A stretch of DNA of 64,000 bases from positions 117,135-181,134 of the forward strand of contig NZ_JBLXAH010000005.1 in assembly GCF_048266065.1 (NCBI RefSeq), given 5' to 3'. The notes under the pieces are model-generated. The model was not told the DNA's origin. It saw only the letters and a program-made list of their open reading frames with translations, and did not search any database. Both the position numbers and the translations under genes were made by a program. Each line of letters begins with the position of its first letter. The stretch's first letter is position 1. This document shows, in pieces, positions 7,106-48,415 of the stretch. The stretch is from Arthrobacter sp. GTDB lineage: Bacteria; Actinomycetota; Actinomycetes; Actinomycetales; Micrococcaceae.

Positions 7106-8158
7106 TCATTTTGTTGGGGTATCTAGCTTACCGAAGTAAGAATCCATCGTATCCGAGCGCAATGCCTTCCCCACACTTTCGACTGCCTGCTTGTCTTCAA
7201 GGACGATCGACTGGCCATCAGCCGATCGGGAGGTCCCGGCCGTGGGGAGGGTGAAGGAGTGGACGTCATCGGATCGGAGGTCCTTCAGCTGGAGCCCGAG
7301 TCCTGCGATCGTCTGCGCGTCAAATGACTGGTCCAGGGTCAGATAGGGGGACACCTTGTCGATGACCTGGTAGAGCGTTGCCGGATTGGTGAGCGTCTTC
7401 GCGGCCAGCATCTTGTCGATGACGGCGTTGAGGAATTTCTGCTGGTTCTTCACCCGCTGGTAGTCGCCGTCGATGAAGGACTTTCGTTCACGAACGAATC
7501 GCAGGGCGCGGTCGCCTTCAAGGTTCAATTCACCCACGGGGTAGAAGTAGTCGGTGTCGTTGGCCGTGAAGGCGATGTCGTTCTTGACCTTGACGCCGCC
7601 CAAGGCAGTCGTCAGGTCGCGGAATCCCTGGAAATCAACCACGGCCACGTGGTCGATCTTCGTGTCGAAGAGGCCCTCGAATGTCTGGACGACGAGCGGG
7701 ACACCGCCGAAGGCCATGGCGGAGTTGATCTTGTTCTGCCCATGCCCGGGGATTTCCAACCAGGTGTCGCGCATGACGGACATGACGTAGACGCCCTTGC
7801 GGTCGGCCGGGACGTGCACCAGCATCATCGTGTCCGATCGCTGGCCGGTCCCGCCGTGTTCAAGGACGTTGCCGGTCACCTGGTTGGCACCGCCGAAGTC
7901 CGCTCCCATGAGCAGGATGTTCATCGACGAGTCACCGGGATCCTTGACCGGGCGCCCTTCCTCGTCGGGGAACGCCGAGGCCAGCGTCTCCGTCTGGCCG
8001 TCAAAGGTGTTGGCCAACGTCAGGACGTACCCGCCGGCCACCATGACGGCAATGACGACAACTGAGGCGACGGCGATGAGAACCGTCCGAGCCCGGTGCT
8101 TCTTCGGTGGCGCCATGCGGCGCGCGACATACTCCGGTTCAGGCCCTGAGCTCTTCAA
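7106..8158 (-). CDS. LCP (LytR-CpsA-Psr) family wall-polymer ligase, copy 1
   Basis: N-terminal TM anchor; LMGAD, RSDTMMLVH, RDTW, KINSA, VRER, GDYQRVKNQ. True start may be 8116. Confidence 0.9.
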   Translation of the reverse strand: MKSSGPEPEYVARRMAPPKKHRARTVLIAVASVVVIAVMVAGGYVLTLANTFDGQTETLASAFPDEEGRPVKDPGDSSMNILLMGADFGGANQVTGNVLEHGGTGQRSDTMMLVHVPADRKGVYVMSVMRDTWLEIPGHGQNKINSAMAFGGVPLVVQTFEGLFDTKIDHVAVVDFQGFRDLTTALGGVKVKNDIAFTANDTDYFYPVGELNLEGDRALRFVRERKSFIDGDYQRVKNQQKFLNAVIDKMLAAKTLTNPATLYQVIDKVSPYLTLDQSFDAQTIAGLGLQLKDLRSDDVHSFTLPTAGTSRSADGQSIVLEDKQAVESVGKALRSDTMDSYFGKLDTPTK

Positions 8159-15527: not shown

Positions 15528-16559
15528 TTAGAGCCCGTGCGAACGCACGAATTCGTCGACGTTATCGTGTGACAAGGCGGTGGCCAATTCATCGATGGCG
15601 TCATTGTCGGGAAGCACGATGGACTGCCCGTCCGCCGAGCGCCCCGTGCCGAGGTTCGGCAGCGTGAAGAAGTGCATGTCCTTGCTGCGCACACCTGCCA
15701 GTGACACTCCGAGTTTGCCAACTTCAACTGCACCGAAGCTTTCGTCGACAGCGACGTAGGGAGAAATTTCGTTGACTACGTCTGAAAGCTTGGCCGGGTT
15801 GGCCAGTGTTTCGGGAGTCATCAGCTTCGAAACCACTGCTTTAATAAAGCTCTGTTGATTCTTCACACGCTGGTAGTCACCATCTTTGAACGATTTCCGT
15901 TCGCGAACGAAGGCCAGAGCCTTATCGCCGACCAAATGCGTTTTGCCAGCCGTGAAGTCGTAGTGGCCATACCCGGAAGTGAAGCTCGTCGGGACATTGA
16001 CGTCGACGCCCCCAATGGCCTCCGTTAGGCCTTTAAAACCTTCCATGTCGATGGATGCGACATGGTCGATACGCGTGTCAAGAAGGGTCTCAATGGTCTG
16101 CACTGCCAATGGCACCCCGCCGTAGGAAAAAGCGGCGTTGATCTTGTGCGTGCCCTTGCCTGGAATCGGAACCCAGGTATCGCGCATAATCGACGTGACG
16201 AAGACATCCTTGCGGTCGGCAGGTACATGCACCAGCATGATGGTGTCCGAGCGTCCTGCGTTTGGTACACCATTCAGGTTTTCTTTTTCGCCTGAACCGC
16301 CACCTGAATCGCTACCGAGCAAAAGTATGTTCTTGGCGGAAGTGTCCTTCTTTTCTGGACGCAGCGTCTCGGCTGGGAACGCCGATTCGATCTTCTCGCT
16401 CTTGTTGTCAAAGCTCTTGGCCAACGAGAACAGATACCCCCCGGCAACGATGGCAGCGATCACGACGAGTGACAACAACGTGATGATCGTCGCCCGGACC
16501 GGATGATTCTTCTTGCGCTCCGGTTGCCCGTAGTCGTAATCCATGTTCTCTTCGGACAT
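15528..16559 (-). CDS. LCP family wall-polymer ligase, copy 2
   Basis: TM anchor; LLGSD, RSDTIMLVH, RDTW, KINAA, VRER, GDYQRVKNQ. Confidence 0.9.
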   Translation of the reverse strand: MSEENMDYDYGQPERKKNHPVRATIITLLSLVVIAAIVAGGYLFSLAKSFDNKSEKIESAFPAETLRPEKKDTSAKNILLLGSDSGGGSGEKENLNGVPNAGRSDTIMLVHVPADRKDVFVTSIMRDTWVPIPGKGTHKINAAFSYGGVPLAVQTIETLLDTRIDHVASIDMEGFKGLTEAIGGVDVNVPTSFTSGYGHYDFTAGKTHLVGDKALAFVRERKSFKDGDYQRVKNQQSFIKAVVSKLMTPETLANPAKLSDVVNEISPYVAVDESFGAVEVGKLGVSLAGVRSKDMHFFTLPNLGTGRSADGQSIVLPDNDAIDELATALSHDNVDEFVRSHGL

Positions 16560-16625
16560 GTCAGCCTTTCGTAGCCATGCTTGCCGTCCCATCCTAGCGG
16601 TGACCAGACGCGATACAGTGGATGG

Positions 16626-17120
16626 GTGCGTCTGCCTGTTGATCTCCTTGTCCGCTACCGCGCGGTTCCTGCCTTGCTCCTTCTCGGTTCGGGGTTGGCC
16701 CTGGCCGGGTGTTCATCGCCGGCGAATGTGGAACCGGCAGGTGACGCGTCGAATCCGCGCTGTGCCGACATGATGGTGACGATGCCGGATGAGGTCGCCG
16801 GATACAAGTTGCGGGACACGACCAGCCAGGCCACCGCAGTCTGGGGCGATCCGTCGAAGATCATCCTCCGGTGCGGCGTGAATGTGCCGGGCCCCACCAC
16901 CGATCCCTGTGTGTCCGTCAACGGGGTCGATTGGGTGGCCAAAGAGGGCGAGGCTGCGTGGACGTTGACGACCTACGGGAGGACTCCTGCCACCGAGGTA
17001 CTGTTCAATCCAGACGAGGTCCCGTCCAGCTCCGTGCTGGCCCAACTGGCCAGTGCCGCTGAACGCATACCGGCTGACCGTCAGTGCAGCACGCTCGAAA
17101 AATCTGAAGATCTTCCCTGA
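16626..17120 (+). CDS. DUF3515-family lipoprotein
   Basis: Lipobox LAGC; WGDP..IILRCGV, CVSVNGVDW, TTYGRTPA; typical neighbour of ddl. Confidence 0.75.
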   Translation: MRLPVDLLVRYRAVPALLLLGSGLALAGCSSPANVEPAGDASNPRCADMMVTMPDEVAGYKLRDTTSQATAVWGDPSKIILRCGVNVPGPTTDPCVSVNGVDWVAKEGEAAWTLTTYGRTPATEVLFNPDEVPSSSVLAQLASAAERIPADRQCSTLEKSEDLP

Positions 17121-17174: not shown

Positions 17175-18299
17175 CTAGCGCAGACCGGTCGGCCGGTTCA
17201 AGGCCAGCCAGATCAACTCGTCGACCAGCTCGGCGTACGCAATCCCGGTCTCGCCCCAGATGCGCGGGTACATGCTGATGGGGGTGAACCCGGGCATGGT
17301 GTTGATCTCATTGATCACCCACCGGCCATCGGTGGTGTAGAAGAAATCGACCCGGGCCAGCCCCTCCCCGCCAATGGCGTCAAAGGCGATAGCGGCTTGT
17401 TCGCGGATTGCAGTGACCTGCGCCGGGGGCAGGTCGGCAGGGCAGCTGAGTTCGGCGGCTCCCCCATCAACGTATTTGGCGTTGAAGTCGTAGAACGTAT
17501 CCGCTCCAGCTGTGACGACGATTTCCCCGGGCAACGATGTGCGGGGCAGATCCGCACCGCGCCCTTCGAGGACGCCGCATTCGATCTCGCGGCCGCCGAT
17601 TCCTTGTTCGATGATGACCTTCGGGTCGTGTTCGCGGGCCGCCTCGACGGCCTCAACGAGACCAGCCTCATCGGCGACGCGGCTCACCCCGACGGAGGAT
17701 CCGGCCCGTGCGGGCTTGACGAAGAGCGGGTAGGCCAAACGCGCCACACGCTGGAGGCAACGCTCCCGATCCCGCTGCCACTGCTTGTCGGTGATCACCT
17801 CGTAGGGACCCACTTCGAGTCCGCCAGCTTCAAAGGCCAGCTTGGCGAAGTGCTTGTCCATGCCGATCGCGCTGGCGGCAACGCCAGAACCCACGTATGG
17901 GATGTCCGCGAGTTCGAGTAGACCCTGGACTGTCCCATCCTCGCCAAAGGAGCCATGCAGTACGGGGAAGACGACGTCGACCGATCCCAGACTCCGGAAG
18001 GCACCCTTTGAACTGTGCCCGATCAGCTCGCTGCCCCCGTTGGTCCGGGCCAACTGCAGGGATTCCCCACTGGGCTCGACCTCCGGGGTGCTTCCGGAAC
18101 TCAGCGACCAGGATTCAGGGTCGGCCTCGGTGATTGTCCATTGGCCCTGGCGCGTGATGCCGATGGGAACGACCTCATATTTTGCGGGGTCGAGCACGCG
18201 CAGGATGCCCGCGGCCGTGACGCAGCTGACGGCGTGTTCGGGTGAGCGGCCACCGAAGAGCAGGGCCACCCGTGTCCTGGCGTTGTTCTCCTGGCTCAT
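17175..18299 (-). CDS. ddl: D-alanine-D-alanine ligase
   Basis: LFGGRSPEHAVS, HGSFGEDG, GSSVG, FYDFNAKY, EINTMPGFT. Confidence 0.95.
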   Translation of the reverse strand: MSQENNARTRVALLFGGRSPEHAVSCVTAAGILRVLDPAKYEVVPIGITRQGQWTITEADPESWSLSSGSTPEVEPSGESLQLARTNGGSELIGHSSKGAFRSLGSVDVVFPVLHGSFGEDGTVQGLLELADIPYVGSGVAASAIGMDKHFAKLAFEAGGLEVGPYEVITDKQWQRDRERCLQRVARLAYPLFVKPARAGSSVGVSRVADEAGLVEAVEAAREHDPKVIIEQGIGGREIECGVLEGRGADLPRTSLPGEIVVTAGADTFYDFNAKYVDGGAAELSCPADLPPAQVTAIREQAAIAFDAIGGEGLARVDFFYTTDGRWVINEINTMPGFTPISMYPRIWGETGIAYAELVDELIWLALNRPTGLR

Positions 18300-37857: not shown

Positions 37858-40431
37858 CTATGCGGTTCCCATAACCCGTTCAAAATCGGCGACGGCGCGT
37901 CGATTATACTCTGCTGCGTCAAACTGAAACGCTGATCTCTCCGAGTCGATCGACGCCATCATGGCATCCGCTAATGCTTCGCTGGTCGGGGCAACGACAT
38001 TTCCGGCACCGCGCGGCAGCGCACCCTCTACGGATCCAAACGAGGTAGTGATGACTGGAAGTCCTAGAACGAGCGCTTCCAGAAGGACCATCGGCTGCCC
38101 TTCGTAGTCACTCGAGAGAACAAATACGTCAGAGTGCCTCATCAAAACGTAGGGATTGCGCGTAAACCCGACCATCTTAATCGCATTCTCCAGCCCAAGT
38201 GCGCGAACTTGCGCATCCAGCTTGGAGCGCAAGGGCCCGTCCCCGACAATAACGAGCCGAGTCAATGCATCGGCCTTGTGGACAATACTGAAGGCATTGA
38301 TTAGCCGAGAATGATTCTTTTCCGGCGACAGCCGACCGACAGTAATGAAAGTCTGATAGCGCTCAGCAGCCCCCTGGTTGGGAAGCTCTCCGGACTGACC
38401 GGCCGAGTAGCTGCTCCTGGGGTCAAGTAGCTCGTGGACAAGGCGTTCAACGATGTCACGCTCCTCCGGATCCAGCCCCGAATTGAATCCGCCGTGATGC
38501 TGGTCCGCAGGGAAGCCCATCCGAGACATCTGCAGAACTTTCTCGGCGTTAATCGTGTTGGGCGCGAAAGTGAATCGAGACGATGGTGCCCATTCCCACA
38601 GTGCCGAACTATTAATGGCGCTGAGACCAGCAGAGACAGACACAAGATTGTCGAAATGTTTATAGTTGCTGAACGTTGCTTGAAGGCCCTGCCTGAGCGG
38701 CTGATCACCATCGATCGAACGCAGTGCATCCGCCGCGAGATCGTTGTGTAGCCAAATGGACCGCGTCGCCTGCGGTCCACTGAGCAATAACATCCCCCAG
38801 AAAGGGGAGTATCCACTGAAATCAATCATGTGATCAAACTCAGCGTCGCCAAAACACCTAGTCCACTCCTGCCTCCAAATACGTTTAACGGAGGGAGACC
38901 TCGAAGCCCAATGCCCATCCCCGATCCGAAGAGCCTTTAATCGGAAGTAGTTCGGGATAACTTCGCCAGCAAAGCTTCCAAAGCGAAACATCACACGCGC
39001 TTGTGGATTGATCCTGGCGAAGTTGGCTTGTTTGTGTGGATCCTCGCTAAACGGGCAAAGAACTGTGACGTCGTAGCGCGAGTAATCTAGGCTGTCAAGC
39101 AAATTAAGTGCCGACGTGGTGATCCCATTTGGCTGCATTCCACCAACGTAAATTAGAAGACGTTTACGACCATCCGAGACATTCGACACGGCTCGGCTTT
39201 TGGAACGATTGCCGGCAAATACAACATCCACGACCCGTGCACAGACATTCCCATCATCATGAGGGAGAAACTGCTCGAGTTCCTCCATATATCGAGATGA
39301 GGGTAGGAACTCATCGGAAGACACAACGGAGGCAACCTCGAGCCCTAGACCATTTAGCGTTGTGGCAACCGGCCCGACGAATTCTTCGGGCACCGAATAA
39401 AGATCCCGGTAGGTACGGTATTCATCTAGGTCGGGAATGAAGAAGAGTACTGGCCGCTTACTGGGCAGGAAATCATAAAAGATGCTCGAATAATCTGTAA
39501 TCAACACCGCTGCCGCCCCCAGTACGACATTGGTCGGCACAGAATTTGGAACCATAACTCCCTCGAGTTCCGGATCCATTTGGGCTGCATCTGCGACGAC
39601 TTGATGGGCTTTAACCATTATTCTAAATTTGGCCGAATCGACTTGTTCTTGAAGGTGCCTAACGACACGAAGTAGATAGGCAGAATCCTGCTGAGGGCGA
39701 AAATAAGACGCCCCCTTCCAAGTTGGCGCATAGAGGATAATCCGACGCTTATCGACGGCCAGGCCACATTCGCCAAAGAGGGCGTCCAACTCGACCCGCG
39801 CCGCGGCTTCATCGCTCTGCCGATCCGTTCGCGGCAACCCTTCTTCAAGGATCGCCCCCGAATATATGTTCACGATTTTAAATGCTCTTCTATACAACCG
39901 TTCAGTCATTGCTGGCGAGGAAGACAGCAAATAGTCAGCGGCGAGAAAGTTCCGAATGATGTTCTTGGCATCAACTGCCCGCCCGATAATGTCGTAGCCC
40001 ATCTTCTTTAGCGGGATGCCGTGCCAAGTATTTACGTATATCTGACCAGGACGTTTGCAGAAAGGAGCTGGAAAGCTGACGTTATTGATCAGAAACTTGG
40101 ACGTAGAAAGTGCACGGTGATATTCCAGCGAACCATAACGAACGAAACTTACATTCGGGTGGTCGCGGAACTCAGACACCACTCCCGCATATCTCTCGAA
40201 GTCATTAAGCGCCCAGATGTGTTCGAGATGAGAATAGACAGGGTCGGCCAACAGAAAGCGAAAAATCGCCTCAGGACTACAGGTCATGCCATTTCCGGAG
40301 TAGGACTCATACAGAACGGTCGACTCTTCAATTGGAGCCCGGTGCCATCTACCTTTCGCCTCTGATACGGCTAGCCTCTTCGTGTGCCTGATCAAGTTGC
40401 CAAGGCTGTATTTGAAGTTCTTTACGCCCAT
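37858..40431 (-). CDS. TagF-like CDP-glycerol glycerophosphotransferase fused to a GT4 glycosyltransferase
   Basis: N-half: YESYSG, TWHGIPLKKMG, LYAPTWKG, LITDYSSIFYDF. C-half: GRLSPEKNH, SDYEGQPMVLLEA. Visibly more A/T-rich than its flanks. Confidence 0.88.
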   Translation of the reverse strand: MGVKNFKYSLGNLIRHTKRLAVSEAKGRWHRAPIEESTVLYESYSGNGMTCSPEAIFRFLLADPVYSHLEHIWALNDFERYAGVVSEFRDHPNVSFVRYGSLEYHRALSTSKFLINNVSFPAPFCKRPGQIYVNTWHGIPLKKMGYDIIGRAVDAKNIIRNFLAADYLLSSSPAMTERLYRRAFKIVNIYSGAILEEGLPRTDRQSDEAAARVELDALFGECGLAVDKRRIILYAPTWKGASYFRPQQDSAYLLRVVRHLQEQVDSAKFRIMVKAHQVVADAAQMDPELEGVMVPNSVPTNVVLGAAAVLITDYSSIFYDFLPSKRPVLFFIPDLDEYRTYRDLYSVPEEFVGPVATTLNGLGLEVASVVSSDEFLPSSRYMEELEQFLPHDDGNVCARVVDVVFAGNRSKSRAVSNVSDGRKRLLIYVGGMQPNGITTSALNLLDSLDYSRYDVTVLCPFSEDPHKQANFARINPQARVMFRFGSFAGEVIPNYFRLKALRIGDGHWASRSPSVKRIWRQEWTRCFGDAEFDHMIDFSGYSPFWGMLLLSGPQATRSIWLHNDLAADALRSIDGDQPLRQGLQATFSNYKHFDNLVSVSAGLSAINSSALWEWAPSSRFTFAPNTINAEKVLQMSRMGFPADQHHGGFNSGLDPEERDIVERLVHELLDPRSSYSAGQSGELPNQGAAERYQTFITVGRLSPEKNHSRLINAFSIVHKADALTRLVIVGDGPLRSKLDAQVRALGLENAIKMVGFTRNPYVLMRHSDVFVLSSDYEGQPMVLLEALVLGLPVITTSFGSVEGALPRGAGNVVAPTSEALADAMMASIDSERSAFQFDAAEYNRRAVADFERVMGTA

Positions 40432-40525
40432 CAGGCAGAAAAACCCAACACCAGAGATTTCATTTTTGGTCCCCCAACCGATTGCTGCCAACGTGGCATC
40501 GTCCTCTAAGAATTAATATGATTCC

Positions 40526-40648: not shown

Positions 40649-41842
40649 ATGACTCCGCACCGCACCATAGATGCCTGGATCCGGAGCCACCCGGCACAGG
40701 TCGATGCCACATTGGCCATCGGGCTATGGGCCCTTCTCGCTCTGTCCACCGTTGTGCTCGGAGGCATGACGGGAACCCACCGGTTCCTGGAATTCGTCAT
40801 CGGATCCCTCCAGGTCGTACCGCTGATCTGGCGACGCTCCCATCTGTTGGCCAGCAGCGCGGTCGTCACGCTCGGATGCCTGCTCCAGGTCGCCCTGGTT
40901 CCCACCTTCCTTCCCACCCAGGTGACCGTCCCCATCGTGGTCTACACACTGGCCAAGTTCGGCAAGCGCTGGGCCTCCTACGCCGGGCTGTGCGCGGGCA
41001 TGGCCGGAGCGGTGCTGGCGACGCTGCGCTATGGCACCGTTAACGGACAGGCCATCGGGCTTCACTTGCTCCCCAGCTTTGTGGGCCTCGCCCTGATCGT
41101 GTTGGTCTCCTGGACATTCGGGGACCTCGCCCGCACCCGCCGACTGGCCGTCCGGGCGCTGGAGGACCGGGCGACACGTCTCGAAGTGGAAAGACAGCAG
41201 GAACGGGAGTTGGCGGCCTCGGACGAACGAGGACGCATTGCCCGGGAGATGCACGACATCGTGGCTCATTCACTCTCCGTCATCATCACGCAAGCCGACG
41301 GGGCCCGGTACGCCAGCGAAAAGGAGCCGGAGATCGCCCGCGAGACGCTGTCCACCATCTCGGAGACCGGGCGGAAGTCACTGCGGGAAATGCGCCGGCT
41401 CCTGGGCGTGTTGCGTGGCGACGAGCAGGCCTCCACGCGCCCCTTGCCCACGTTGGAGGACATCCCGGAGCTTCTCGAAGCCACCCGGACGGCAGGACTC
41501 GAGGTGGGCTATGACGTGCAGGGGTCACCGCGCCGTGAGCTGCCGCCCGGCGCCGAACTCACAGGCTACCGGGCGGTCCAAGAGGCACTCACCAACACGA
41601 TTAAGCATGCTGGCCCGGCCGCCAGGGCCGACGTCCTTTTGCGGTGGACCAGTTCCGGGTTGGAGCTTGAGGTCATCGACGATGGTCGCGGGGCCGGCGC
41701 GACCGACGACAACGTCGGGGCCCAGCAGGGTCTGGTGGGCATGGCAGAACGGGTCGCCCTCTACGATGGACGTATCAGCACCGGGCCCCGGCCCCATGGC
41801 GGCTTCTCCGCCAGCATCTTCATCCCCTACACCGAGGACTAA
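40649..41842 (+). CDS. Membrane sensor histidine kinase (HisKA_3/NarX-type)
   Basis: Five to six TM segments; ERGRIAREMHDIVAHSLS; QEALTNTIKHA; DDGRG; GLVGMAER. Confidence 0.93.
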   Translation: MTPHRTIDAWIRSHPAQVDATLAIGLWALLALSTVVLGGMTGTHRFLEFVIGSLQVVPLIWRRSHLLASSAVVTLGCLLQVALVPTFLPTQVTVPIVVYTLAKFGKRWASYAGLCAGMAGAVLATLRYGTVNGQAIGLHLLPSFVGLALIVLVSWTFGDLARTRRLAVRALEDRATRLEVERQQERELAASDERGRIAREMHDIVAHSLSVIITQADGARYASEKEPEIARETLSTISETGRKSLREMRRLLGVLRGDEQASTRPLPTLEDIPELLEATRTAGLEVGYDVQGSPRRELPPGAELTGYRAVQEALTNTIKHAGPAARADVLLRWTSSGLELEVIDDGRGAGATDDNVGAQQGLVGMAERVALYDGRISTGPRPHGGFSASIFIPYTED

Positions 41843-42532
41843 GTGGACACCGAGAGCCCCACCCCGATCACCGTCGCCCTGGTCGACGACCAGCTCCTCG
41901 TCCGCAGTGGATTCCGGATGTTGATCAACTCCCAGTCCGACCTCGAGGTCGTCGCCGAGGCGACGAACGGGCGTGAGGCATTGGCGTCCCCCGCCCTAGC
42001 CCACGCCGACGTTGTCCTCATGGACGTGCGTATGCCGGAAATGGACGGGATCGAGACCACCGGAAAACTCCTGAAGGGCAAGGCCGAGGGCGGGCCACGC
42101 ATCATCGTGCTGACAACGTTCGACCTTGACGAATACGCGCTGGCTGCCATCCAAGCCGGGGCCAGCGGTTTCCTGCTCAAGGACGCCCCGCCCGAGGAGC
42201 TGCTGGAGGCGATCCGCACCGTTCACCGCGGCGACGCGGTGATCGCCCCCTCCACGACACGGCGCCTTCTGGACCACGTGGCTCCCATGCTGCGTCGCCA
42301 GGTACCGGAGGCCTCCGGGCATGAACAGGCAGTAGCCTCACTGACGGCACGCGAACGGGAAGTCTTTGAACTGATTGCCTTGGGACGCTCCAACCCGGAG
42401 ATCGCCGCTGGATTGTTCCTGTCCGAGGCAACCGTCAAGACGCACGTGGGACGCATCCTGGCCAAGCTACAGGCCCGCGACCGCGTCCAGGCCGTGGTCA
42501 TCGCCTACGCAACGGGGATCGTCAGCCCCTAG
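41843..42532 (+). CDS. NarL/LuxR family response regulator
   Basis: [38 protein letters not shown]. Confidence 0.95.
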
Positions 42533-42548
42533 CCACCGCCGCTCGACG

Positions 42549-43640
42549 TCAGTGGTGCTGCGGCCTCGGTCGGGGCGTGCGCACGAAAATGAAGAAGTAC
42601 CACAGGCCACCGAAGACGATCAGCGATCCCAGGACGACCGTCATGGTCGACGGCGACATCCCGATGCTTGCAGTGCTCGCCGTGCCCGGGTGACCGGCGT
42701 CGGGGCCGTCGCCGGCATTCCCGGCGGCAGCCGTCGTGGCGTCGGTGCTGGAGGCGCCGGCAGCGCTCGACGACGACGTGGGTTCGGGGACCGAACCGCC
42801 CTCCGTCCCCCCTGGTGTGGCCAATCGGATCTGGCCGGAGGAGAAGTCATACACGAAGTCGCACGGTTCCAGGGAGCCGCGGGTCAACATCCTGCCGGTC
42901 GACGGGTCGATCAGCAGGCCGGTCTGCGGGTGGATGGGGTAGCCGGTGGCGGCATCGATGAGGAATCCGGTGCGTGCGTCGCGCTGGCCTCCCTGTTGGA
43001 CCGCACCGGCACCGTTGTTGCTGTATTGCCGGCCGCCCGCGGAGGAGGACCATCCGTTACCGCCCTTTTCGCGGGCGTCGGACGACGCTCCACCCTGCGA
43101 CGGGGTCTTGGAGGTGGGGTGTGACGGTGCCGGCGGCGTGGAGGGCTGCGTGGGCTGGCGCGTCGGATCGGCCGACGTCGACGGAGCCGGCGTGGGCTTC
43201 GACGTTTCAGTGGGCGGTGGGGTGGGCTCGGTCGACGGCGAGGTCGGGTCCGATGATCCATCGCCCGGATCGCTTGGATCCGTCGGCTCAGCGGTCTCCG
43301 ACGGGTCGGCCGTCGGCGGGGTGCCGGCCCCCGGGGAGCCGGGTGCATCGTCGCCCGCGCCAGGATCCGTCACGGAGGGAACGGCGGCGCTGGGGCCCGG
43401 AGCCGAGCTGCCGGGCGCCGGATCGGAGGTCGGGACCAGTTCGGTGGCCGCCGCACCGACGGCGTCGCCCAGGGGCTTCAGCGTCAGTTCCGAGCGGACC
43501 GGATCGGACTCCGGGCCGGGTGTGGAGGTCGCCGCGCTCGCTGCCGAGACGCCGAGGGAGCCGACCAGCACCACGGCGCCGAGCAAACCGGCAGCGCGCA
43601 GGGAGGAGCGCTGCAACGACTGCTGTTTCGCCGGGCGCAT
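42549..43640 (-). CDS. Pro/Ser/Thr-rich (mucin-like) surface protein with central DxxTG repeats and a C-terminal TM anchor
   Basis: Signal peptide ..SAASA; long P/S/T tracts; DARTGFLI-DAATGYPI-HPQTGLLI-DPSTGRML; C-terminal TM + basic tail. Confidence 0.75.
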   Translation of the reverse strand: MRPAKQQSLQRSSLRAAGLLGAVVLVGSLGVSAASAATSTPGPESDPVRSELTLKPLGDAVGAAATELVPTSDPAPGSSAPGPSAAVPSVTDPGAGDDAPGSPGAGTPPTADPSETAEPTDPSDPGDGSSDPTSPSTEPTPPPTETSKPTPAPSTSADPTRQPTQPSTPPAPSHPTSKTPSQGGASSDAREKGGNGWSSSAGGRQYSNNGAGAVQQGGQRDARTGFLIDAATGYPIHPQTGLLIDPSTGRMLTRGSLEPCDFVYDFSSGQIRLATPGGTEGGSVPEPTSSSSAAGASSTDATTAAAGNAGDGPDAGHPGTASTASIGMSPSTMTVVLGSLIVFGGLWYFFIFVRTPRPRPQHH

Positions 43641-43731
43641 CTGCCTCCCTGGGATGTCCGGTGCCGGGTGGTACTCCCTCCATCATAACGAAAGAGTCAC
43701 GATCCGGCATCGGCGGGGCACCGCCGTCGTG

Positions 43732-44889
43732 CTATTTGGAGAGGTTTCCGTCCCGGAAATCCTTGAAGACCGACTCCGTTTGGGAGGTGATGTTCAGGAT
43801 CGACTGGCGGTCCGCGCTCCACCCATAATCCGCAGTGGGAACACGATGCCCGACCTTCTTCAGGTCCGTCTGGTAGGCCCACGCACCAAACGTCAGCGCC
43901 TGCTCGGCGGTGAGATCGGTCACGACGTGCTTGTTCGCCGTGTCCAGCACCGTGGCCAGGCCCTCGGGCCCCTTGGCGATGGCGTAGGCGCCGATGCCCG
44001 TCAGCGTCAGGCCCTGGTTGAAGCTGCGGTCGAAGTCGCCCTTGGGCAGCGTCTTGCGTTCGCGGGAGAACCAGAAGGCGTCGTACCCGTCGACGTGGTG
44101 CTTGCCCTTCGGCACGGCCCTGACCTTCATGGGGGCGTTGATGGTGATGCCGCCGAGCTCGTCGATCATCTTCTGGAAGCCGGTGAAACCGGTCAGCACG
44201 TAGCCCTCGATGTCCAGGTCGGTCACCTGTGCGACCAGCTTGGCCTCCGCCGCGGGGCCGCCGCGGGTCATGGCGTTGTTGATCTTGGCCTTCCCGCCGC
44301 CGGGCTGGGTGACCCACAAATCCCGCGGGATGCCCATGACTCCGCCGCCGCCCTTGCCGTCGACGCCGACCACCTGCAGGGCGTCGGCGCGTTCGGCCGT
44401 GATCTTCTCGCCCTTCTTCTCCCGGGCGTCCGATCCCATCAGCAGCACATGTCGTTTGCCGCCCAGGGCTGCGTCCTTCACGCCGAGCGAGGGCCACCAG
44501 CCGCCGACTGCCGTCCAGGTGTCCTTTTTCTTCACCGCCAGGGTGACGTCCTTGCCGCTGGTCAGCACCGCGAAGTGCTGCCGGTTCCAGGTCCCCGCGG
44601 TGCCGGTGACCCGTGGGGTGCCCTGGGCCGCCTGGGCGTTCTTCAGAGCCGCGGTGGCCGGGCCGGACGTGGGCACGGTCTTCCCGGTGTAGAGCCTGGT
44701 GGCGAACGCGGTCAGTTCCTTCGAGAGGCCCTTCGACGCGATGGCCGGCTTCGGTGCCGCCGACGTCGATGCAGCGGTGGTCGGTGCCGGGCTCGGTGCG
44801 GGCTCGGCGGGCTTCGAGCAGCCGGTGAGCAGGGCCAGGGTCAACACGGGGGCGAGCACGGCGGCGGCAGTGGTGGAGCGCAGGGTCAT
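43732..44889 (-). CDS. LCP family protein, copy 3; lipoprotein with an extra N-terminal domain
   Basis: Lipobox LTGC; LMGSD, RADAL, IPRDLW, KINNA, SRER, GDFDRSFNQ. Confidence 0.85.
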   Translation of the reverse strand: MTLRSTTAAAVLAPVLTLALLTGCSKPAEPAPSPAPTTAASTSAAPKPAIASKGLSKELTAFATRLYTGKTVPTSGPATAALKNAQAAQGTPRVTGTAGTWNRQHFAVLTSGKDVTLAVKKKDTWTAVGGWWPSLGVKDAALGGKRHVLLMGSDAREKKGEKITAERADALQVVGVDGKGGGGVMGIPRDLWVTQPGGGKAKINNAMTRGGPAAEAKLVAQVTDLDIEGYVLTGFTGFQKMIDELGGITINAPMKVRAVPKGKHHVDGYDAFWFSRERKTLPKGDFDRSFNQGLTLTGIGAYAIAKGPEGLATVLDTANKHVVTDLTAEQALTFGAWAYQTDLKKVGHRVPTADYGWSADRQSILNITSQTESVFKDFRDGNLSK

Positions 44890-44960
44890 GCAACCATTGT
44901 GACGTGCGCCGCCGTCGCGGGCCGCGAACGCCACGCCCCGGCACCCCACCCGCACCCCCA

Positions 44961-44980
44961 GGTCATACCCCGGTATGACC
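44961..44980. promoter_or_regulatory. Palindromic operator candidate between the divergent LCP3 and ABC genes
   Basis: GGTCATACC-CC-GGTATGACC, perfect 9-bp arms. Confidence 0.65.
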
Positions 44981-45048
44981 CCGGCCGACGCCAAGACCCT
45001 CCGCCGGGCTGATCCGTTCGCGGGCCCCCACACCATAGATTGATGACC

Positions 45049-45798
45049 ATGACGATCACCGACACCCACTCCACCACCCAGGCGGTCTCCGCCCGGGCCC
45101 TGACCAAGGTCTACGGCTCCGGCCCCACGGCGGTCCACGCCCTCGCCGGCGTCGACGTGTCCTTCACCGCCGGACGCTTCACCGCCATCATGGGCCCCTC
45201 CGGATCCGGCAAGTCCACCCTGATGCACTGCTTGGCCGGACTGGATTCGGCCACCTCCGGCTCCATCACGATCGCCGGGCAGGACCTCACCGCCCTGGAC
45301 GACAACGCGCTCACCCGCCTGCGCCGCGAAAAGATCGGCTTCGTCTTCCAGTCCTTCAACCTGGTGCCCACCCTCACCGCCGAACAGAACATCCTGCTGC
45401 CCCTGCAGCTCGCCGGAACCAAGCACGACGCCGGATGGCTGGCCCAGGTGGTCGCCACCCTCGGTCTCGGGGACCGGCTGGGCCACAAGCCGCACGAGCT
45501 CTCCGGCGGACAGCAGCAGCGCGTCGCCGTCGCCCGCGCCCTGCTGGCGCGCCCCGCCGTCGTCTTCGGGGACGAGCCCACCGGCAACCTGGACACCCGC
45601 ACCGGCGCCGAAGTCCTGTCGCTGCTGCGCTCCTCGGTGAAGGAAATGGGCCAGACCATCATCATGGTCACCCACGACCCGGTCGCCGCCGGCTATGCCG
45701 ACGAGGTGCTGCTGATGCGCGACGGCGAACTCGTGGGAAACCTGTCCGATCCGACGCCGGAAGCCGTCACCGCGGCGCTGGCCTCCCTGGGGGCCTGA
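45049..45798 (+). CDS. ABC transporter ATP-binding protein (LolD/MacB-type)
   Basis: GPSGSGKST, GFVFQSFNL, LSGGQQQR, DEPTGNLD, VTHD; start 7 nt after TAGATT. Confidence 0.93.
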   Translation: MTITDTHSTTQAVSARALTKVYGSGPTAVHALAGVDVSFTAGRFTAIMGPSGSGKSTLMHCLAGLDSATSGSITIAGQDLTALDDNALTRLRREKIGFVFQSFNLVPTLTAEQNILLPLQLAGTKHDAGWLAQVVATLGLGDRLGHKPHELSGGQQQRVAVARALLARPAVVFGDEPTGNLDTRTGAEVLSLLRSSVKEMGQTIIMVTHDPVAAGYADEVLLMRDGELVGNLSDPTPEAVTAALASLGA

Positions 45799-45799
45799 C

Positions 45800-48415
45800 G
45801 TGCTGTCACTCGCCCTGGCCAACCTCCGCACCTACTCCCGCCGCTTCATCGCCGTCACCCTGGCCGTGATGATCGGGACCGCGTTCCTCTCGGCCACCCT
45901 GATGGTCAACTCCTCCGCCACCGCCTCGCTGGAACGCAGCATCGGCGAGGCCTACCAGCACGCCGACCTGGTCGCCGGCATCGACGCCGACCAGCCCACC
46001 ACCGACGACGAGGCGCTCGGCACGAAGCAGCTGGCCGCGGTGGCCGCCGTCCCCGGGGTCGCCGCCGTCGAACCCCAGACCAGCACCGGCGTCCGCATTG
46101 CCACCGGCACCGGCGACTACAACGCCGTCGTGCAGCCCTTCGCCGCCGACGCGCAGCTGCGCACCACCGCGATGGTCTCCGGGCACGCCCCCACCGGCGG
46201 TTCGCAGGTCACCGTGGATGAGAAGCACGCCACGCAGTACGGCCTGGACACCGGCGACACCGTCGGCGTTACCGCTTCCACCCCCGACGGCACCGTCCTG
46301 GACTACCCGGCGACGATCACCGGGATCACCACCTCCTCGAACAGCCCGTTCCTGGGCTCGAACCTGCAGGTCGCCGTCTCCCCCGACCGCTATGCCGACT
46401 TCGCCGGGGCCGACCCGTACTACGAGTCCCTGCTGGTCCGCCTCGACGACGGGACGGACCCGGCCGCCGCGACCGGCGCCATCACCGACGCCCTGCGCGG
46501 CCACGGGATCTCCTCCCCCTCGGTCATGACCGCGCAGGAACGCACCGTCAAGGACCTGGCCTCCTTCACCGGCGGACAGGACCAGTTCACCGGCATCCTG
46601 CTGGTCTTCGCGCTCATCGCCCTGGTGGTGACCGGGCTGGTGGTGATGAACACGTTCGCCGTGCTCGTCGCCCAGCGCACCCGCGAACTTGCCCTCCTGC
46701 GCACCCTCGGGGCACTGCGCGTCCAGCTGCGCCGTTCCGTGCTCATCGAGGCGCTGGTGGTCGGCGTCGTGTCCTCGGCGCTCGGCGTGCTGTTGGCCAT
46801 CGGCGTGATGGCCTCGCTGGTCGGCTACGTCTCCACGCTGCCGGAGGCATCGTTCGCCGTGCTCTCCGTCTCACCGGCCTCGGTCATCGCCGGGCTGGTG
46901 GTCGGCACCCTCATGACGCTCATCGCCGCCTGGGCGCCGGCCCGCCGGGCGATGTCGGTGGCGCCGTTGGCGGCACTGCGCCCGGCCGACGACGCCTCGG
47001 TGCACAACCGCATCGGCAAGCTGCGCCTGGTGTTCGGGGTGCTGCTGGCGCTCGGCGGCGGCGCATTGCTTGCCTTCGGCGCCGTCTCCCACAACCTGCT
47101 GGTCGGCTTCTTCGGCGGCCTGCTCTCCTTCATCGGCATCCTCATGCTCGCCTCGCTGTTCCTGCCCGGCGCCGTGCGTGGGGTGGGCCGGCTGTTCGGC
47201 GGCACCGGCGTGCCGGCGAAGCTGGCCTCCCTGAACGCCGTCCGCAACCCCGGACGCACCACGGCCACCGCCACCGCGCTGCTCATCGGCGTCACCCTGG
47301 TCTCGATGATGATGGTCGGCGCGCAGACCACCAAACAGTCCTTCGGCGCCGAACTGGGCCGGAACTACCTGGTGGACTTCACGGTCGACTCCCCCGCCGC
47401 CTACGGGGAGAACTTCGGTGGGGCCCCGCTGCCGGAGTCCTCCGGGGAGGCTGGCTCCGGCGCGGCGGCCCCCGCCAAGGCCCAGCTCGGCGAAAAGCAA
47501 GCCAGGCAGGCCGCAGCGGTCGACGGGGTCTCAGACGTCGCCCTTTTGACCCCGGTGGGCGTCGATTCGGACGGCCAGACTGCCTATGCTGCAGATCCCG
47601 CGGATCTGAAAAAGGTGCTCAACGAGCCTGGCCTGGTGCCCGCTGATGGCGAAATCATCGTCGGCCAGCTGGTGGAGAAGAAGACACTGGAGGTCCGCAC
47701 GTCCGATGATGCGTCGCCCACGGCATTGACGACCAAGCACTCGAAGTCGGACATCACCGCCCCACTCATGACACTGAAAACGGCCGAACAGCTCGACGGA
47801 TACAGCCCGGGCGCGGGCAGTCGGGAGTACACTGCGGCAGATGGTTCCACCAGCATGGCCGCCTACCCGGTCCTGTGGATCAAGGCGGCCCCTGGCCTGG
47901 ACAGCGGGCAGCTGCAGGACCTCGGCAAGACGCTCGCGGCCGAGCTGCGGGTCTCCGACTACCAGGTCGCCGGCGGTGCCCTGGAGAAGGCCCTGTTCAC
48001 CCAGGTGATCGACACGCTGCTGCTCGTCGTCTCCGGCCTGCTGGCCGTGGCCGTGTTCATCGCGCTCATCGGGGTCGCGAACACCTTGAGCCTCTCGGTG
48101 CTCGAACGCACCCGGGAATCGGCCCTGCTGCGGGCCCTGGGCCTGACCCGTGGGCAGCTGCGCGGGATGCTGGCGCTGGAGGCCGTGCTGATCGCCGGGG
48201 TCGCGGCGCTGCTGGGCATCCTGCTCGGGACCACCTACGGGGTGCTCGGTGCGCAGTCGGCGGTCGGATCATTCGCCGCCATCACCCTGTCGCTGCCGTG
48301 GGCCCAGCTGCTGCTGGTCCTCGGGGTCAGCGTGCTGGCCGCGCTGGCCGCCTCGATCGTCCCGGCCCGCCGTGCGGCACGCCTGTCCCCGGTGGAAGGG
48401 CTCGCGAACGAATAG
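45800..48415 (+). CDS. FtsX/MacB-type ABC permease with duplicated permease units
   Basis: QRTRELALLRTLGA and ERTRESALLRALG repeats; two large extracellular loops; about 10 TM segments. Confidence 0.92.
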   Translation: MLSLALANLRTYSRRFIAVTLAVMIGTAFLSATLMVNSSATASLERSIGEAYQHADLVAGIDADQPTTDDEALGTKQLAAVAAVPGVAAVEPQTSTGVRIATGTGDYNAVVQPFAADAQLRTTAMVSGHAPTGGSQVTVDEKHATQYGLDTGDTVGVTASTPDGTVLDYPATITGITTSSNSPFLGSNLQVAVSPDRYADFAGADPYYESLLVRLDDGTDPAAATGAITDALRGHGISSPSVMTAQERTVKDLASFTGGQDQFTGILLVFALIALVVTGLVVMNTFAVLVAQRTRELALLRTLGALRVQLRRSVLIEALVVGVVSSALGVLLAIGVMASLVGYVSTLPEASFAVLSVSPASVIAGLVVGTLMTLIAAWAPARRAMSVAPLAALRPADDASVHNRIGKLRLVFGVLLALGGGALLAFGAVSHNLLVGFFGGLLSFIGILMLASLFLPGAVRGVGRLFGGTGVPAKLASLNAVRNPGRTTATATALLIGVTLVSMMMVGAQTTKQSFGAELGRNYLVDFTVDSPAAYGENFGGAPLPESSGEAGSGAAAPAKAQLGEKQARQAAAVDGVSDVALLTPVGVDSDGQTAYAADPADLKKVLNEPGLVPADGEIIVGQLVEKKTLEVRTSDDASPTALTTKHSKSDITAPLMTLKTAEQLDGYSPGAGSREYTAADGSTSMAAYPVLWIKAAPGLDSGQLQDLGKTLAAELRVSDYQVAGGALEKALFTQVIDTLLLVVSGLLAVAVFIALIGVANTLSLSVLERTRESALLRALGLTRGQLRGMLALEAVLIAGVAALLGILLGTTYGVLGAQSAVGSFAAITLSLPWAQLLLVLGVSVLAALAASIVPARRAARLSPVEGLANE

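What the first reader, a model, noticed from the sequence alone, without database searches (positions are those of the whole stretch)
42549..44889. Lipoprotein LCP next to a mucin-like anchored protein: possible LcpA/GspA-type protein glycosylation system
Seen: an LCP with intact catalytic Arg/Asp motifs but a lipobox and an extra ~130-aa N-terminal domain lies 91 bp upstream of a co-oriented P/S/T-rich surface protein. Established: in Actinomyces oris, LcpA phosphotransfers glycans onto the neighbouring-encoded surface protein GspA rather than onto peptidoglycan. Inference: an analogous system that might decorate this protein with teichoic-acid-like chains. Caveats: no clear LPxTG motif, and a hairpin plus TATGAT box suggest a separate promoter.
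Basis: inference. Interest (0 to 1): 0.62.

Follow-up and report, generated by a model that had tools for sequence, protein, structure and literature searches.

The report
LCP enzyme beside mucin-like membrane protein
A cell-wall ligase (LCP) gene lies next to a gene for a sugar-acceptor-like, membrane-anchored stalk protein from a small family that travels with LCP genes across Micrococcaceae; nothing here shows that it works like the one known LCP protein-glycosylation system.

Summary
Window 43732-44889 (-) encodes an intact LCP with a lipobox and a folded extra N-terminal domain. Ninety-one bp downstream, 42549-43640 (-) encodes a protein with a signal peptide, Pro/Ser/Thr-rich linkers and a C-terminal membrane anchor. 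It has no sortase motif.

New findings:
- The LCP ("LCP3") belongs to a widespread, unstudied lipoprotein-type LCP subfamily of Micrococcales.
- The neighbour belongs to a tiny Micrococcaceae-only family. Its only folded part is an OCRE-like octamer-repeat beta domain.
- In 34 of 42 genomes (8 of 10 genera) a family member lies directly downstream of an LCP gene, often overlapping it. Outside the Arthrobacter rhombi clade that LCP is the transmembrane type next to ddl (window LCP2, 27 kb away), inside the wall-glycopolymer cluster.
- The pairing with LCP3 is a derived relocation, and here the gene has its own conserved promoter-like block.

A link to LCP and wall-polymer assembly is therefore likely. 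A GspA-type acceptor role remains possible but is not favoured. There is no LAXTG/LPXTG signal, no class E sortase and no LcpA-type disulfide, LCP3 is the paralogue least like LcpA, and a Pmt homologue could glycosylate the stalk instead. The scan has noted other LCP-plus-small-surface-protein cassettes on other DNA.

The parts
43732..44889 (-). LCP3: lipoprotein-type LytR-CpsA-Psr phosphotransferase, 385 aa
   Evidence: PF03816 at 89 bits and TIGR00350. AF2 model pLDDT 90.4; Foldseek matches all LCP crystal structures at E 1e-17 to 1e-9. 63 full-length homologues across Micrococcales.
44818..44889 (-). Signal peptide with lipobox LLTG-C24
   Evidence: Read from the sequence. Cys24 is invariant in 63 homologues.
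44467..44742 (-). Extra N-terminal alpha+beta domain of LCP3 (residues about 50-141), with no known family
   Evidence: pLDDT 95-98; two helices plus a four-strand meander. No Pfam or NCBIfam hit. No structural match beyond the LCP domain. Invariant residues Y67, D114, W125, G130, W132, P133.
43735..44454 (-). LCP catalytic domain (residues 146-385) with intact Asp/Arg set
   Evidence: Alignment to TagT and MsrR. Invariant columns in A3.
43680..43705 (-). Conserved 26-nt intergenic block holding the -10-like TATGAT (43682-43687); probable own promoter of the downstream gene
   Evidence: It is the only conserved stretch of the spacer in five A. rhombi-clade genomes, with the variant TACAAT in two of them.
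43711..43726 (-). GC hairpin after the LCP3 stop codon; not a convincing terminator
   Evidence: No U tract on the - strand. Fold z = -0.88. Not conserved.
42549..43640 (-). Mucin-like type I membrane protein with an OCRE-like core, 363 aa (P0002)
   Evidence: Conserved SD AGGGAGG at 43644-43650 and conserved ATG.
43530..43640 (-). Sec-type signal peptide (residues 1-37, cleavage about ASA|A)
   Evidence: Read from the sequence. Helix 10-30 in the model. Conserved in the family.
42996..43529 (-). Disordered Pro/Ser/Thr-rich distal linker (residues 38-215), expanded in this clade
   Evidence: P 20%, S 16%, T 12%. pLDDT below 50. Length and sequence vary between relatives.
42813..42995 (-). OCRE-like octamer-repeat beta domain (residues 216-276): RTGFLIDAATGYPIHPQTGLLIDPSTGRML...DFVYDF
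   Evidence: pLDDT about 95. Pfam OCRE matches 11 of 17 family members, best E 1.1e-7; one homologue scores 31.9 bits, above the 24.7 cut-off, while P0002 itself scores only 14.4 bits. Foldseek top hits are the RBM10 and RBM5 OCRE domains, E 0.018 and 0.4.
42654..42812 (-). Membrane-proximal Ser/Thr-rich linker (residues 277-329)
   Evidence: 36% S+T here; family median 35% S+T against 11% in the distal linker.
42552..42653 (-). C-terminal TM helix (GGLWYFFIFV) and basic cytoplasmic tail RTPRPRPQHH; no sortase motif
   Evidence: Helix 330-352. G345, W347, Y348, R354 and P356 are invariant in A1 and A4. No L[PA]xTG.
15528..16592 (-). LCP2: transmembrane-type LCP, positional orthologue of the LCP that partners this protein family in other genera
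   Evidence: Flanked by a DUF3515 lipoprotein (16581-17120, +) and ddl (17175-18299, -), as in other genera. Groups with the pair LCPs in the tree. It is the closest window LCP to A. oris LcpA, 50.9 bits.
40649..42532 (+). Two-component system (DUF7134/HisKA_3 kinase and NarL-type regulator), a conserved neighbour of LCP3
   Evidence: Pfam. Same arrangement beside the LCP3 orthologue in genome G017, which lacks P0002 there.
45040..48415 (+). MacB/FtsX-type ABC transporter, divergent from LCP3 and a conserved neighbour of it
   Evidence: Pfam ABC_tran, MacB_PCD and FtsX. Same arrangement in G017 and G004.

Best explanation
SHOWN:
- The downstream gene is a member of a small Micrococcaceae-specific family of type I membrane proteins. 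The layout is: signal peptide, Pro-rich distal linker, OCRE-like beta domain, Ser/Thr-rich membrane-proximal linker, a conserved TM helix and a basic tail.
- The family's usual place is immediately after, and often overlapping, the transmembrane-type LCP gene in the cluster ddl-DUF3515-LCP-[this gene]-GT4-GT4-TagG-TagH.
- In the A. rhombi clade the gene, in some species together with the rest of the cluster, was moved behind LCP3. LCP3 is an intact lipoprotein-anchored LCP of a separate, widespread subfamily.

INFERRED:
- The protein is a non-catalytic partner of LCP-dependent wall-glycopolymer ligation rather than a GspA-type cargo.
- Its conserved TM helix and tail would dock to the membrane machinery (the TM-type LCP, or TagGH).
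- Its Ser/Thr stalk, probably O-mannosylated by Pmt, would lift the OCRE-like domain some 15-25 nm into the wall. There the domain would bind a peptide or polyproline-like ligand and so position ligation relative to new peptidoglycan.
- Stop/start overlap in the ancestral arrangement suggests subunit-like stoichiometry with the LCP.
- Here LCP3 is a neighbour by relocation. The working partner may still be LCP2.
For: - Conserved downstream placement on the same strand in 34 of 42 genomes and 8 of 10 genera.
- Overlaps or gaps of 30 nt or less between the LCP stop and the family gene start.
- Cluster content: GT4, GT4, TagG and TagH.
- The TM helix and tail are conserved well beyond what simple anchoring needs.
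- The core folds confidently and resembles OCRE. OCRE is a polyproline-binding fold (PMC5127646).
- The S/T-rich segment is always the membrane-proximal one.
- LCP3 is a distinct clade (100/99 support), and its orthologue in G017 lacks this neighbour.
- The gene has its own conserved promoter-like block here.
- The orthologue is interrupted by an IS element in one strain, so it is dispensable.
Against: - No interaction, expression or phenotype data exist.
- No accessory subunit of an LCP is known in any organism.
- The bacterial core lacks the tyrosine triplets that eukaryotic OCRE domains use to bind proline-rich peptides, so ligand binding is conjecture.
- Conserved synteny among related genera counts as few independent events: one ancestral arrangement plus one relocation.
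- LCP3 has no TM helix, so the proposed TM docking cannot apply to the LCP encoded next door.
Confidence: 0.35

Rival explanations
1. GspA-like acceptor without sortase. An LCP (LCP3 here, the ddl-linked LCP elsewhere) would transfer the polymer made by the neighbouring GT4/TagF enzymes, and exported by TagGH, from its undecaprenyl-pyrophosphate carrier onto Ser/Thr hydroxyls of the membrane-proximal stalk. The result would be a protein-anchored, membrane-tethered glycopolymer.
For: - Precedent: LcpA glycosylates the neighbour-encoded GspA in A. oris while GspA is still membrane-bound (PMC6381275).
- LCP adjacency is conserved, and was even re-created beside a second LCP clade after relocation.
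- The membrane-proximal linker is S/T-rich throughout the family. It lies within reach of an LCP active site, which works at the membrane surface.
- LCP3 is catalytically intact.
- The ancestral partner clade is the one most like LcpA.
- In this clade the gene has its own promoter-like block and an expanded S/T-rich region, as expected of an abundant substrate.
Against: - There is no LAXTG/LPXTG signal in any of 22 members and no class E sortase.
- LCP3 lacks the LcpA disulfide and is only 22 bits similar to LcpA.
- Translational coupling in the ancestral arrangement fits a subunit better than an abundant substrate.
- In A. oris, membrane accumulation of glycosylated GspA is toxic (PMC7244523).
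- Homology to GspA could not be tested.
- A Pmt homologue is present.
Confidence: 0.25
2. Ordinary Pmt-mannosylated membrane protein with no mechanistic tie to LCP. The adjacency would reflect inherited gene order inside a cell-envelope region.
For: - A full-length Pmt homologue is present (NF058602, E 4e-75).
- Pro/Ser/Thr-rich exported proteins are the usual Pmt substrates in Actinobacteria (established knowledge; PMC6593405 was found but not read).
- Eight of 42 genomes keep the family away from any LCP.
- The family is absent from 24 of 38 genera of Micrococcaceae whose LCP clusters otherwise look similar.
- An IS disrupts the orthologue in one strain.
Against: - Overlapping stop and start codons with the LCP gene in several genera.
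- The gene landed again directly behind an LCP after relocation.
- Second-type paralogues also stay within the same wall-polysaccharide cluster, next to DUF3515 and the rml genes.
Confidence: 0.2
3. Envelope-stress module. P0002 and LCP3 would be targets or co-factors of the adjacent two-component system and MacB-type ABC transporter, for example sensing or repairing wall damage.
For: - LCP3 keeps the same two-component system and ABC neighbours in two genera.
It was not checked here.
Against: - P0002 is absent from this neighbourhood outside the A. rhombi clade.
- The LCP3 orthologue in another family has unrelated neighbours.
- No regulatory data exist.
Confidence: 0.1

Closest known systems
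Actinomyces oris LcpA / GspA / SrtA pathway (PMC6381275; PDB 5V8C)
   Same: - An LCP gene lies next to the gene of a small exported protein that has a signal peptide and a C-terminal membrane segment.
- The LCP has the conserved catalytic arginines.
- The organism is an actinobacterium with several LCP paralogues.
   Different: - Gene order is reversed (gspA lies upstream of lcpA).
- GspA carries an LAQTG sorting signal and is moved to the wall by a class E sortase. Here there is no motif and only a class F sortase.
- LcpA is TM-anchored with a C179-C365 disulfide. LCP3 is a lipoprotein whose only Cys is the lipobox Cys, and it has an extra N-terminal domain.
- LCP3 is the window paralogue least similar to LcpA.
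- Glycosylation has not been shown here.
Wall-teichoic-acid/polysaccharide ligases TagT/U/V, S. aureus LcpA/MsrR, Cps2A (PDB 6UF3, 6UEX, 3TEP)
   Same: Same fold and catalytic residues (Foldseek E 1e-17, TM-score to target 0.76-0.81). The genomic setting also includes TagF-, GT4- and TagGH-type genes.
   Different: These enzymes are anchored by an N-terminal TM helix. The Cps2A accessory domain is not what aligns with LCP3's N-terminal domain. None is known as a lipoprotein, and a 2021 review of the family mentions none (PMC7831098).
OCRE domain of RBM5/RBM10 (PF17780; PDB 2MXW, 5MF9; PMC5127646)
   Same: Tandem octamer repeats with a (D/H)PxTG turn motif that fold into a small beta sheet. The Pfam model hits 11 of 17 family members, and these are the top structural matches.
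   Different: OCRE is a eukaryotic nuclear domain with tyrosine triplets that bind polyproline peptides. The bacterial core is extracytoplasmic and poor in aromatic residues, and P0002 itself scores below the Pfam cut-off. The resemblance may be convergent.
Actinobacterial protein O-mannosylation by Pmt (GT39)
   Same: A Sec-exported protein with Pro/Ser/Thr-rich segments, and a Pmt homologue encoded in the genome.
   Different: Pmt substrates have no known link to LCP genes, and Pmt adds short mannose chains rather than phosphodiester-linked polymers.

Membership tests
LytR-CpsA-Psr (LCP) family, for LCP3 | LCP domain (PF03816 / TIGR00350) above the curated cut-off | tested here: met
   89.4 bits against 24.6, and 83.4 against 62.3.
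LytR-CpsA-Psr (LCP) family, for LCP3 | Conserved catalytic Asp/Arg residues around the pyrophosphate site | tested here: met
   Aligned to TagT and MsrR. D154, D169, R189, D190, R276, R278, D285 and R288 are invariant, and R156 and R167 nearly so, in 63 homologues.
LytR-CpsA-Psr (LCP) family, for LCP3 | Alpha-beta-alpha LCP fold | tested here: met
   AF2 pLDDT 90.4, pTM 0.85. Foldseek finds 33 LCP structures with E of 1e-9 or better.
LytR-CpsA-Psr (LCP) family, for LCP3 | N-terminal transmembrane anchor (typical, not obligatory) | tested here: not met
   A lipobox LLTGC replaces it, and Cys24 is invariant in the subfamily.
LytR-CpsA-Psr (LCP) family, for LCP3 | Pyrophosphatase / phosphotransferase activity | not testable with these tools
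   Needs a biochemical assay.
LcpA/GspA-type protein glycosylation system | LCP gene adjacent to the gene of its exported protein substrate | tested here: met
   A 91-bp gap on the same strand, conserved in the genus. The order is the reverse of gspA-lcpA.
LcpA/GspA-type protein glycosylation system | Substrate carries a cell-wall sorting signal (LAXTG/LPXTG, then TM, then basic tail) and is anchored by a class E sortase | tested here: not met
   No motif in P0002 or in 21 relatives. The single sortase in the genome is class F.
LcpA/GspA-type protein glycosylation system | LCP specifically related to LcpA, including the stabilising C179-C365 disulfide | tested here: not met
   LCP3 has no Cys other than the lipobox Cys. 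Similarity to 5V8C is 22.3 bits, against 50.9 for LCP2.
LcpA/GspA-type protein glycosylation system | Substrate homologous to GspA | not tested
   The GspA sequence could not be obtained with the tools. No family member carries a sorting signal among the 21 relatives screened or the 15 of the 50 representative hits that I read.
LcpA/GspA-type protein glycosylation system | LCP-dependent high-mass glycosylated form of the protein | not testable with these tools
   Needs mutants, immunoblots and glycan chemistry.
OCRE domain (PF17780), for the core of P0002 | Match to the Pfam model above the gathering score | tested here: inconclusive
   P0002 scores 14.4 bits, below 24.7. The G017 homologue scores 31.9 bits, above it. 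Eleven of 17 members match at E of 0.05 or better.
OCRE domain (PF17780), for the core of P0002 | OCRE beta-sheet fold | tested here: inconclusive
   The core has pLDDT about 95. The top Foldseek hits are 2MXW (E 0.018, probability 0.95) and 5MF9 (E 0.4), but TM-scores are low.
OCRE domain (PF17780), for the core of P0002 | Exposed tyrosine/aromatic triplets that bind polyproline | tested here: not met
   The core has single aromatic residues only (F226, Y234, F262, Y264, F266), by sequence and in comparison with PMC5127646.
Pmt (GT39) O-mannosylation substrates | Sec-exported protein with Ser/Thr/Pro-rich segments in an organism that encodes Pmt | tested here: met
   Signal peptide and composition. 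Pmt homologue NF058602 at E 4e-75, full length but below the equivalog cut-off.
Pmt (GT39) O-mannosylation substrates | Mannose actually attached | not testable with these tools
   Needs a ConA blot or mass spectrometry.

The most novel reading that the evidence does not exclude
Micrococcaceae use a sortase-independent, permanently membrane-anchored mucin-like protein as the acceptor onto which an LCP enzyme ligates a teichoic-acid-like polymer. The product would be a protein-anchored equivalent of lipoteichoic acid. This would be the second known case of LCP-mediated protein glycosylation and the first without a sortase.
Probability: 0.2. Interest if true: 0.8.

Novelty: new variant of a known kind. 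Interest (0 to 1): 0.45.

Why it matters
[quoted passage not shown] This work defines a compact, unannotated protein family that has stayed attached to LCP genes across at least eight genera of Micrococcaceae, including through one relocation to a different LCP clade. It therefore gives a concrete, genetically tractable candidate for either a second LCP protein substrate or the first LCP accessory subunit. It also flags two unstudied items: a widespread lipoprotein-anchored LCP subfamily with a new N-terminal domain, and an extracytoplasmic bacterial OCRE-like domain. If neither functional link holds, the locus is an ordinary envelope gene neighbourhood.

Tried and rejected
1. Terminator reading of the intergenic hairpin. 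Rejected: it has no U tract, its fold is no better than shuffles, and it is not conserved.
2. Operon coupling of LCP3 and P0002. Not supported here: the 91-bp spacer holds a conserved -10-like block. Coupling does hold for the ancestral pair in other genera.
3. Sortase substrate. Rejected: there is no motif, and a crude genome-wide screen found no convincing L[PA]xTG substrate.
4. Direct comparison with GspA. The sequence could not be obtained.
   - A C-terminal fragment query did not bring up 5V8C.
   - The 2014 paper is not held.
   - Sampling LCP neighbourhoods in 13 genomes (20 regions), chosen from the 18 whose LCPs were located, found no small LAXTG neighbour.
6. Widening the family.
   - A word-based search with the alignment added almost nothing.
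   - An order-level genome search found no true members outside Micrococcaceae. It found only unrelated membrane proteins of about 168 aa with octamer repeats and an N-terminal TM segment.
   - An exhaustive HMMER search gave only 50 cluster representatives. Several of those I read are unrelated long repeat proteins.
7. Named fold for the LCP3 N-terminal domain. No structural match beyond the LCP domain.
8. A non-homologous mucin-like anchored gene behind the ddl-linked LCP in genera that lack the family. None was seen in 12 genomes, using a crude gene caller.
Full report
**1. Observation**

The minus strand of 42549-44889 holds two co-oriented genes.

LCP3 (43732-44889, 385 aa):
- It begins MTLRSTTAAAVLAPVLTLALLTG-C.
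- It matches PF03816 (89 bits) and TIGR00350.
- Its Asp/Arg catalytic set aligns residue for residue with B. subtilis TagT and S. aureus MsrR.
- An AlphaFold2 model built on 63 homologues has mean pLDDT 90.4. It matches every solved LCP structure (Foldseek E 1e-17 to 1e-9) over the C-terminal roughly 250 residues.
- Residues 50-141 form a separate, confidently modelled alpha+beta domain with no Pfam, NCBIfam or structural match.

Downstream gene (42549-43640, 363 aa), after a gap of 91 bp:
- Sec-type signal peptide.
- A 178-residue disordered stretch that is 48% Pro+Ser+Thr.
- A roughly 60-residue core of four octamer repeats.
- A second Ser/Thr-rich linker.
- A C-terminal TM helix and a basic tail.

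The hairpin is the one weak point: it has no U tract, folds no better than shuffled sequence, and is not conserved.

**2. Organism and LCP inventory**

Related contigs are named Arthrobacter rhombi, Arthrobacter sp. and Micrococcaceae bacterium. The genome encodes four LCPs, three of them in this window:
- LCP1 (7106-8158) lies upstream of TagG/TagH-type ABC genes.
- LCP2 (15528-16592) lies beside a DUF3515 lipoprotein gene and ddl.
- LCP3 is the subject of this finding.

**3. LCP3 is a member of a widespread lipoprotein LCP subfamily**

- Full-length relatives at 40-50% identity occur in Zhihengliuella, Brevibacterium, Ornithinicoccus, Segeticoccus, Terrabacter and Dermatophilaceae.
- In an alignment of 63 of them, the lipobox Cys is invariant. 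So are the N-domain residues Y67, D114, W125, G130, W132 and P133, and the catalytic residues.
- A 2021 review describes LCPs as TM-anchored and mentions no lipoprotein form.
- The subfamily is annotated only as "LCP family protein". It is real and intact but uncharacterised.

**4. The neighbour belongs to a tiny family with an OCRE-like core**

- A word-indexed search found only nine close relatives.
- An exhaustive HMMER search of 1.84 billion representatives found 50 hits. About fifteen to twenty-five of these are true family members; several of the rest that I read are unrelated proteins rich in DPxTG octamer repeats.
- The core is the only folded part (pLDDT about 95).
- The Pfam OCRE model hits 11 of 17 members (best E 1.1e-7), and one homologue is above the gathering score (31.9 bits), but P0002 itself scores only 14.4 bits.
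- The two best structural matches are the OCRE domains of RBM10 and RBM5, though weakly (E 0.018 and 0.4).
- Eukaryotic OCRE binds polyproline helices through exposed tyrosines (PMC5127646). The bacterial core has few aromatic residues, so I call it OCRE-like and infer no ligand from it.
- Twenty-two members share the same layout, and none has an L[PA]xTG motif.
- The distal linker is Pro-rich (median 33% Pro, 11% Ser+Thr). The membrane-proximal linker is Ser/Thr-rich (median 35%).

**5. Gene neighbourhood**

- A profile of the core was searched in 251 genomes of the family Micrococcaceae. It matched in 48 genomes of 14 genera.
- LCP domains were then located in the 42 genomes with solid matches.
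- In 34 of these genomes (8 of 10 genera) a family member lies directly downstream of an LCP gene on the same strand. The distance from the LCP Pfam domain to the core is 549-760 nt outside the A. rhombi clade.
- With about three LCP genes per 3.5-Mb genome, the chance expectation is about 5e-4 per gene.
- Stop and start codons overlap by 4-28 nt or lie within about 30 nt.
- The usual context is plsC-gpsA-ddl-DUF3515-LCP-[family gene]-GT4-GT4(600 aa)-TagG-TagH. This is a wall-glycopolymer synthesis and export cluster.
- A second paralogue type with a different TM helix lies next to DUF3515 and the rhamnose genes of the same cluster.
- Eight genomes keep the family away from any LCP, or on contigs without one.
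- Genera that lack the family show no analogous gene behind the ddl-linked LCP.

**6. The LCP3 pairing is derived**

- The partner LCP in other genera is TM-anchored, about 350 aa long and next to ddl. This is the position held by window LCP2.
- In a maximum-likelihood tree, the pair LCPs group with LCP1 and LCP2. LCP3 and its orthologues form a separate clade with 100/99 support.
- In genome G017 of another genus, the LCP3 orthologue (52% identity) sits between the same two-component system and the same ABC transporter as in the window. No mucin-like gene lies between them, and that genome keeps its family member behind the ddl-linked LCP 25 kb away.
- The gene was therefore inserted behind LCP3 in the A. 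rhombi clade. In three species it came with a tandem paralogue and the GT4-TagG-TagH genes. In the window genome and two others it came alone.
- The 91-bp spacer contains a conserved 26-nt block with TATGAT/TACAAT and a conserved Shine-Dalgarno sequence and ATG. The gene probably has its own promoter here.
- In Arthrobacter sp. 179 the orthologue is separated from LCP3 by an insertion carrying a transposase ORF, and it has lost its signal peptide.

**7. Comparison with LcpA/GspA**

The literature statement is correct:
- lcpA lies immediately downstream of gspA.
- R149 and R266 are needed for GspA glycosylation.
- LcpA has a C179-C365 disulfide.
- GspA is anchored through an LAQTG signal by a class E sortase (PMC6381275, PMC7244523).

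Here the sorting signal is absent, and the only sortase is class F. LCP3 has no disulfide and is the window LCP least similar to LcpA: 22 bits, against 27 for LCP1 and 51 for LCP2. I could not obtain the GspA sequence, so homology of the two substrates remains untested.

A full-length Pmt homologue is present. The stalk could therefore be O-mannosylated independently of any LCP.

**8. Reading**

I put about 0.6 on a real functional tie between this family and LCP-dependent wall-polymer ligation. Within that:
- I slightly favour a non-catalytic partner or adaptor (0.35). The reasons are the ancestral translational coupling and the strongly conserved TM helix and tail.
- A GspA-like acceptor gets 0.25. 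In its favour are the precedent, the membrane-proximal Ser/Thr-rich linker, the renewed LCP adjacency after relocation, and the gene's own promoter with an expanded Ser/Thr region in this clade.
- An unrelated Pmt glycoprotein gets 0.2.
- An envelope-stress role with the neighbouring two-component system and ABC transporter gets 0.1.

All functional steps are inferred; only anatomy and synteny are shown.

**9. Verdict**

The specific LCP3-to-GspA analogy fails three defining features, and the partnership with LCP3 is secondary.
- Earlier notes of this scan describe other LCP-plus-small-surface-protein cassettes in other phyla (e1-4005155, e1-4209062, e1-5156074), so the theme recurs. This case differs in having no sortase element.

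Noticed in passing
L029:1581-3851 (Arthrobacter sp. 179; same genome as L006): The orthologue of the mucin-like gene is split from LCP3 by an insertion of about 2.2 kb carrying a transposase ORF. Only the C-terminal part of about 215 codons remains in frame, without a signal peptide. The tandem paralogue downstream is intact.
   Followed up: partly
L077:4906-10523 (G004) and L078 (G003): In three species of the genus a tandem paralogue and a lower-GC block (GT4 of about 600 aa, TagG-like, TagH-like; GC3 0.61-0.68 against 0.88-0.94 in the flanks) follow the mucin-like gene behind LCP3. The site looks like the entry point of a variable glycopolymer island.
   Followed up: partly
window 37858-40491 (-): An 877-aa fusion of a CDP-glycerol glycerophosphotransferase domain (PF04464) and a GT4 domain, in a stretch of 53% GC against 61-70% in the flanking windows. 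It is probably a horizontally acquired polymerase.
   Followed up: no
window 16581-17120 (+) and loci L063-L071: A DUF3515 lipoprotein gene is divergently paired with the ddl-linked LCP gene throughout Micrococcaceae. This is a second conserved LCP neighbour of unknown function.
   Followed up: no
L085-L090 (other families of the same order): Proteins of about 168 aa with one N-terminal TM segment and C-terminal DPxTG octamer repeats (for example DEETGFLVDSETGEWIDPQTGFIIDPETM). They are unrelated in layout to the window family. This suggests the octamer-repeat module is used more widely in actinobacterial proteins.
   Followed up: no
window 43680-43705 (-): The block GGATCGTGACTCTTTCGTTATGATGG is the only conserved part of the LCP3 / mucin-like gene spacer in five genomes. 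It may hold an operator as well as a -10 box.
   Followed up: partly
G000:C1:226896-227324 (-) and G000:C2:225666-226136 (+): The genome has a single sortase, of class F (NF033748, 186 bits), and a full-length Pmt-like GT-C. A crude screen found no convincing L[PA]xTG substrate in the genome.
   Followed up: partly
window 44890-45039: LCP3 starts 6 nt after a CACAAT box, so it may be leaderless. It is divergent from a MacB-type ABC operon, and the same arrangement is kept in another genus.
   Followed up: no
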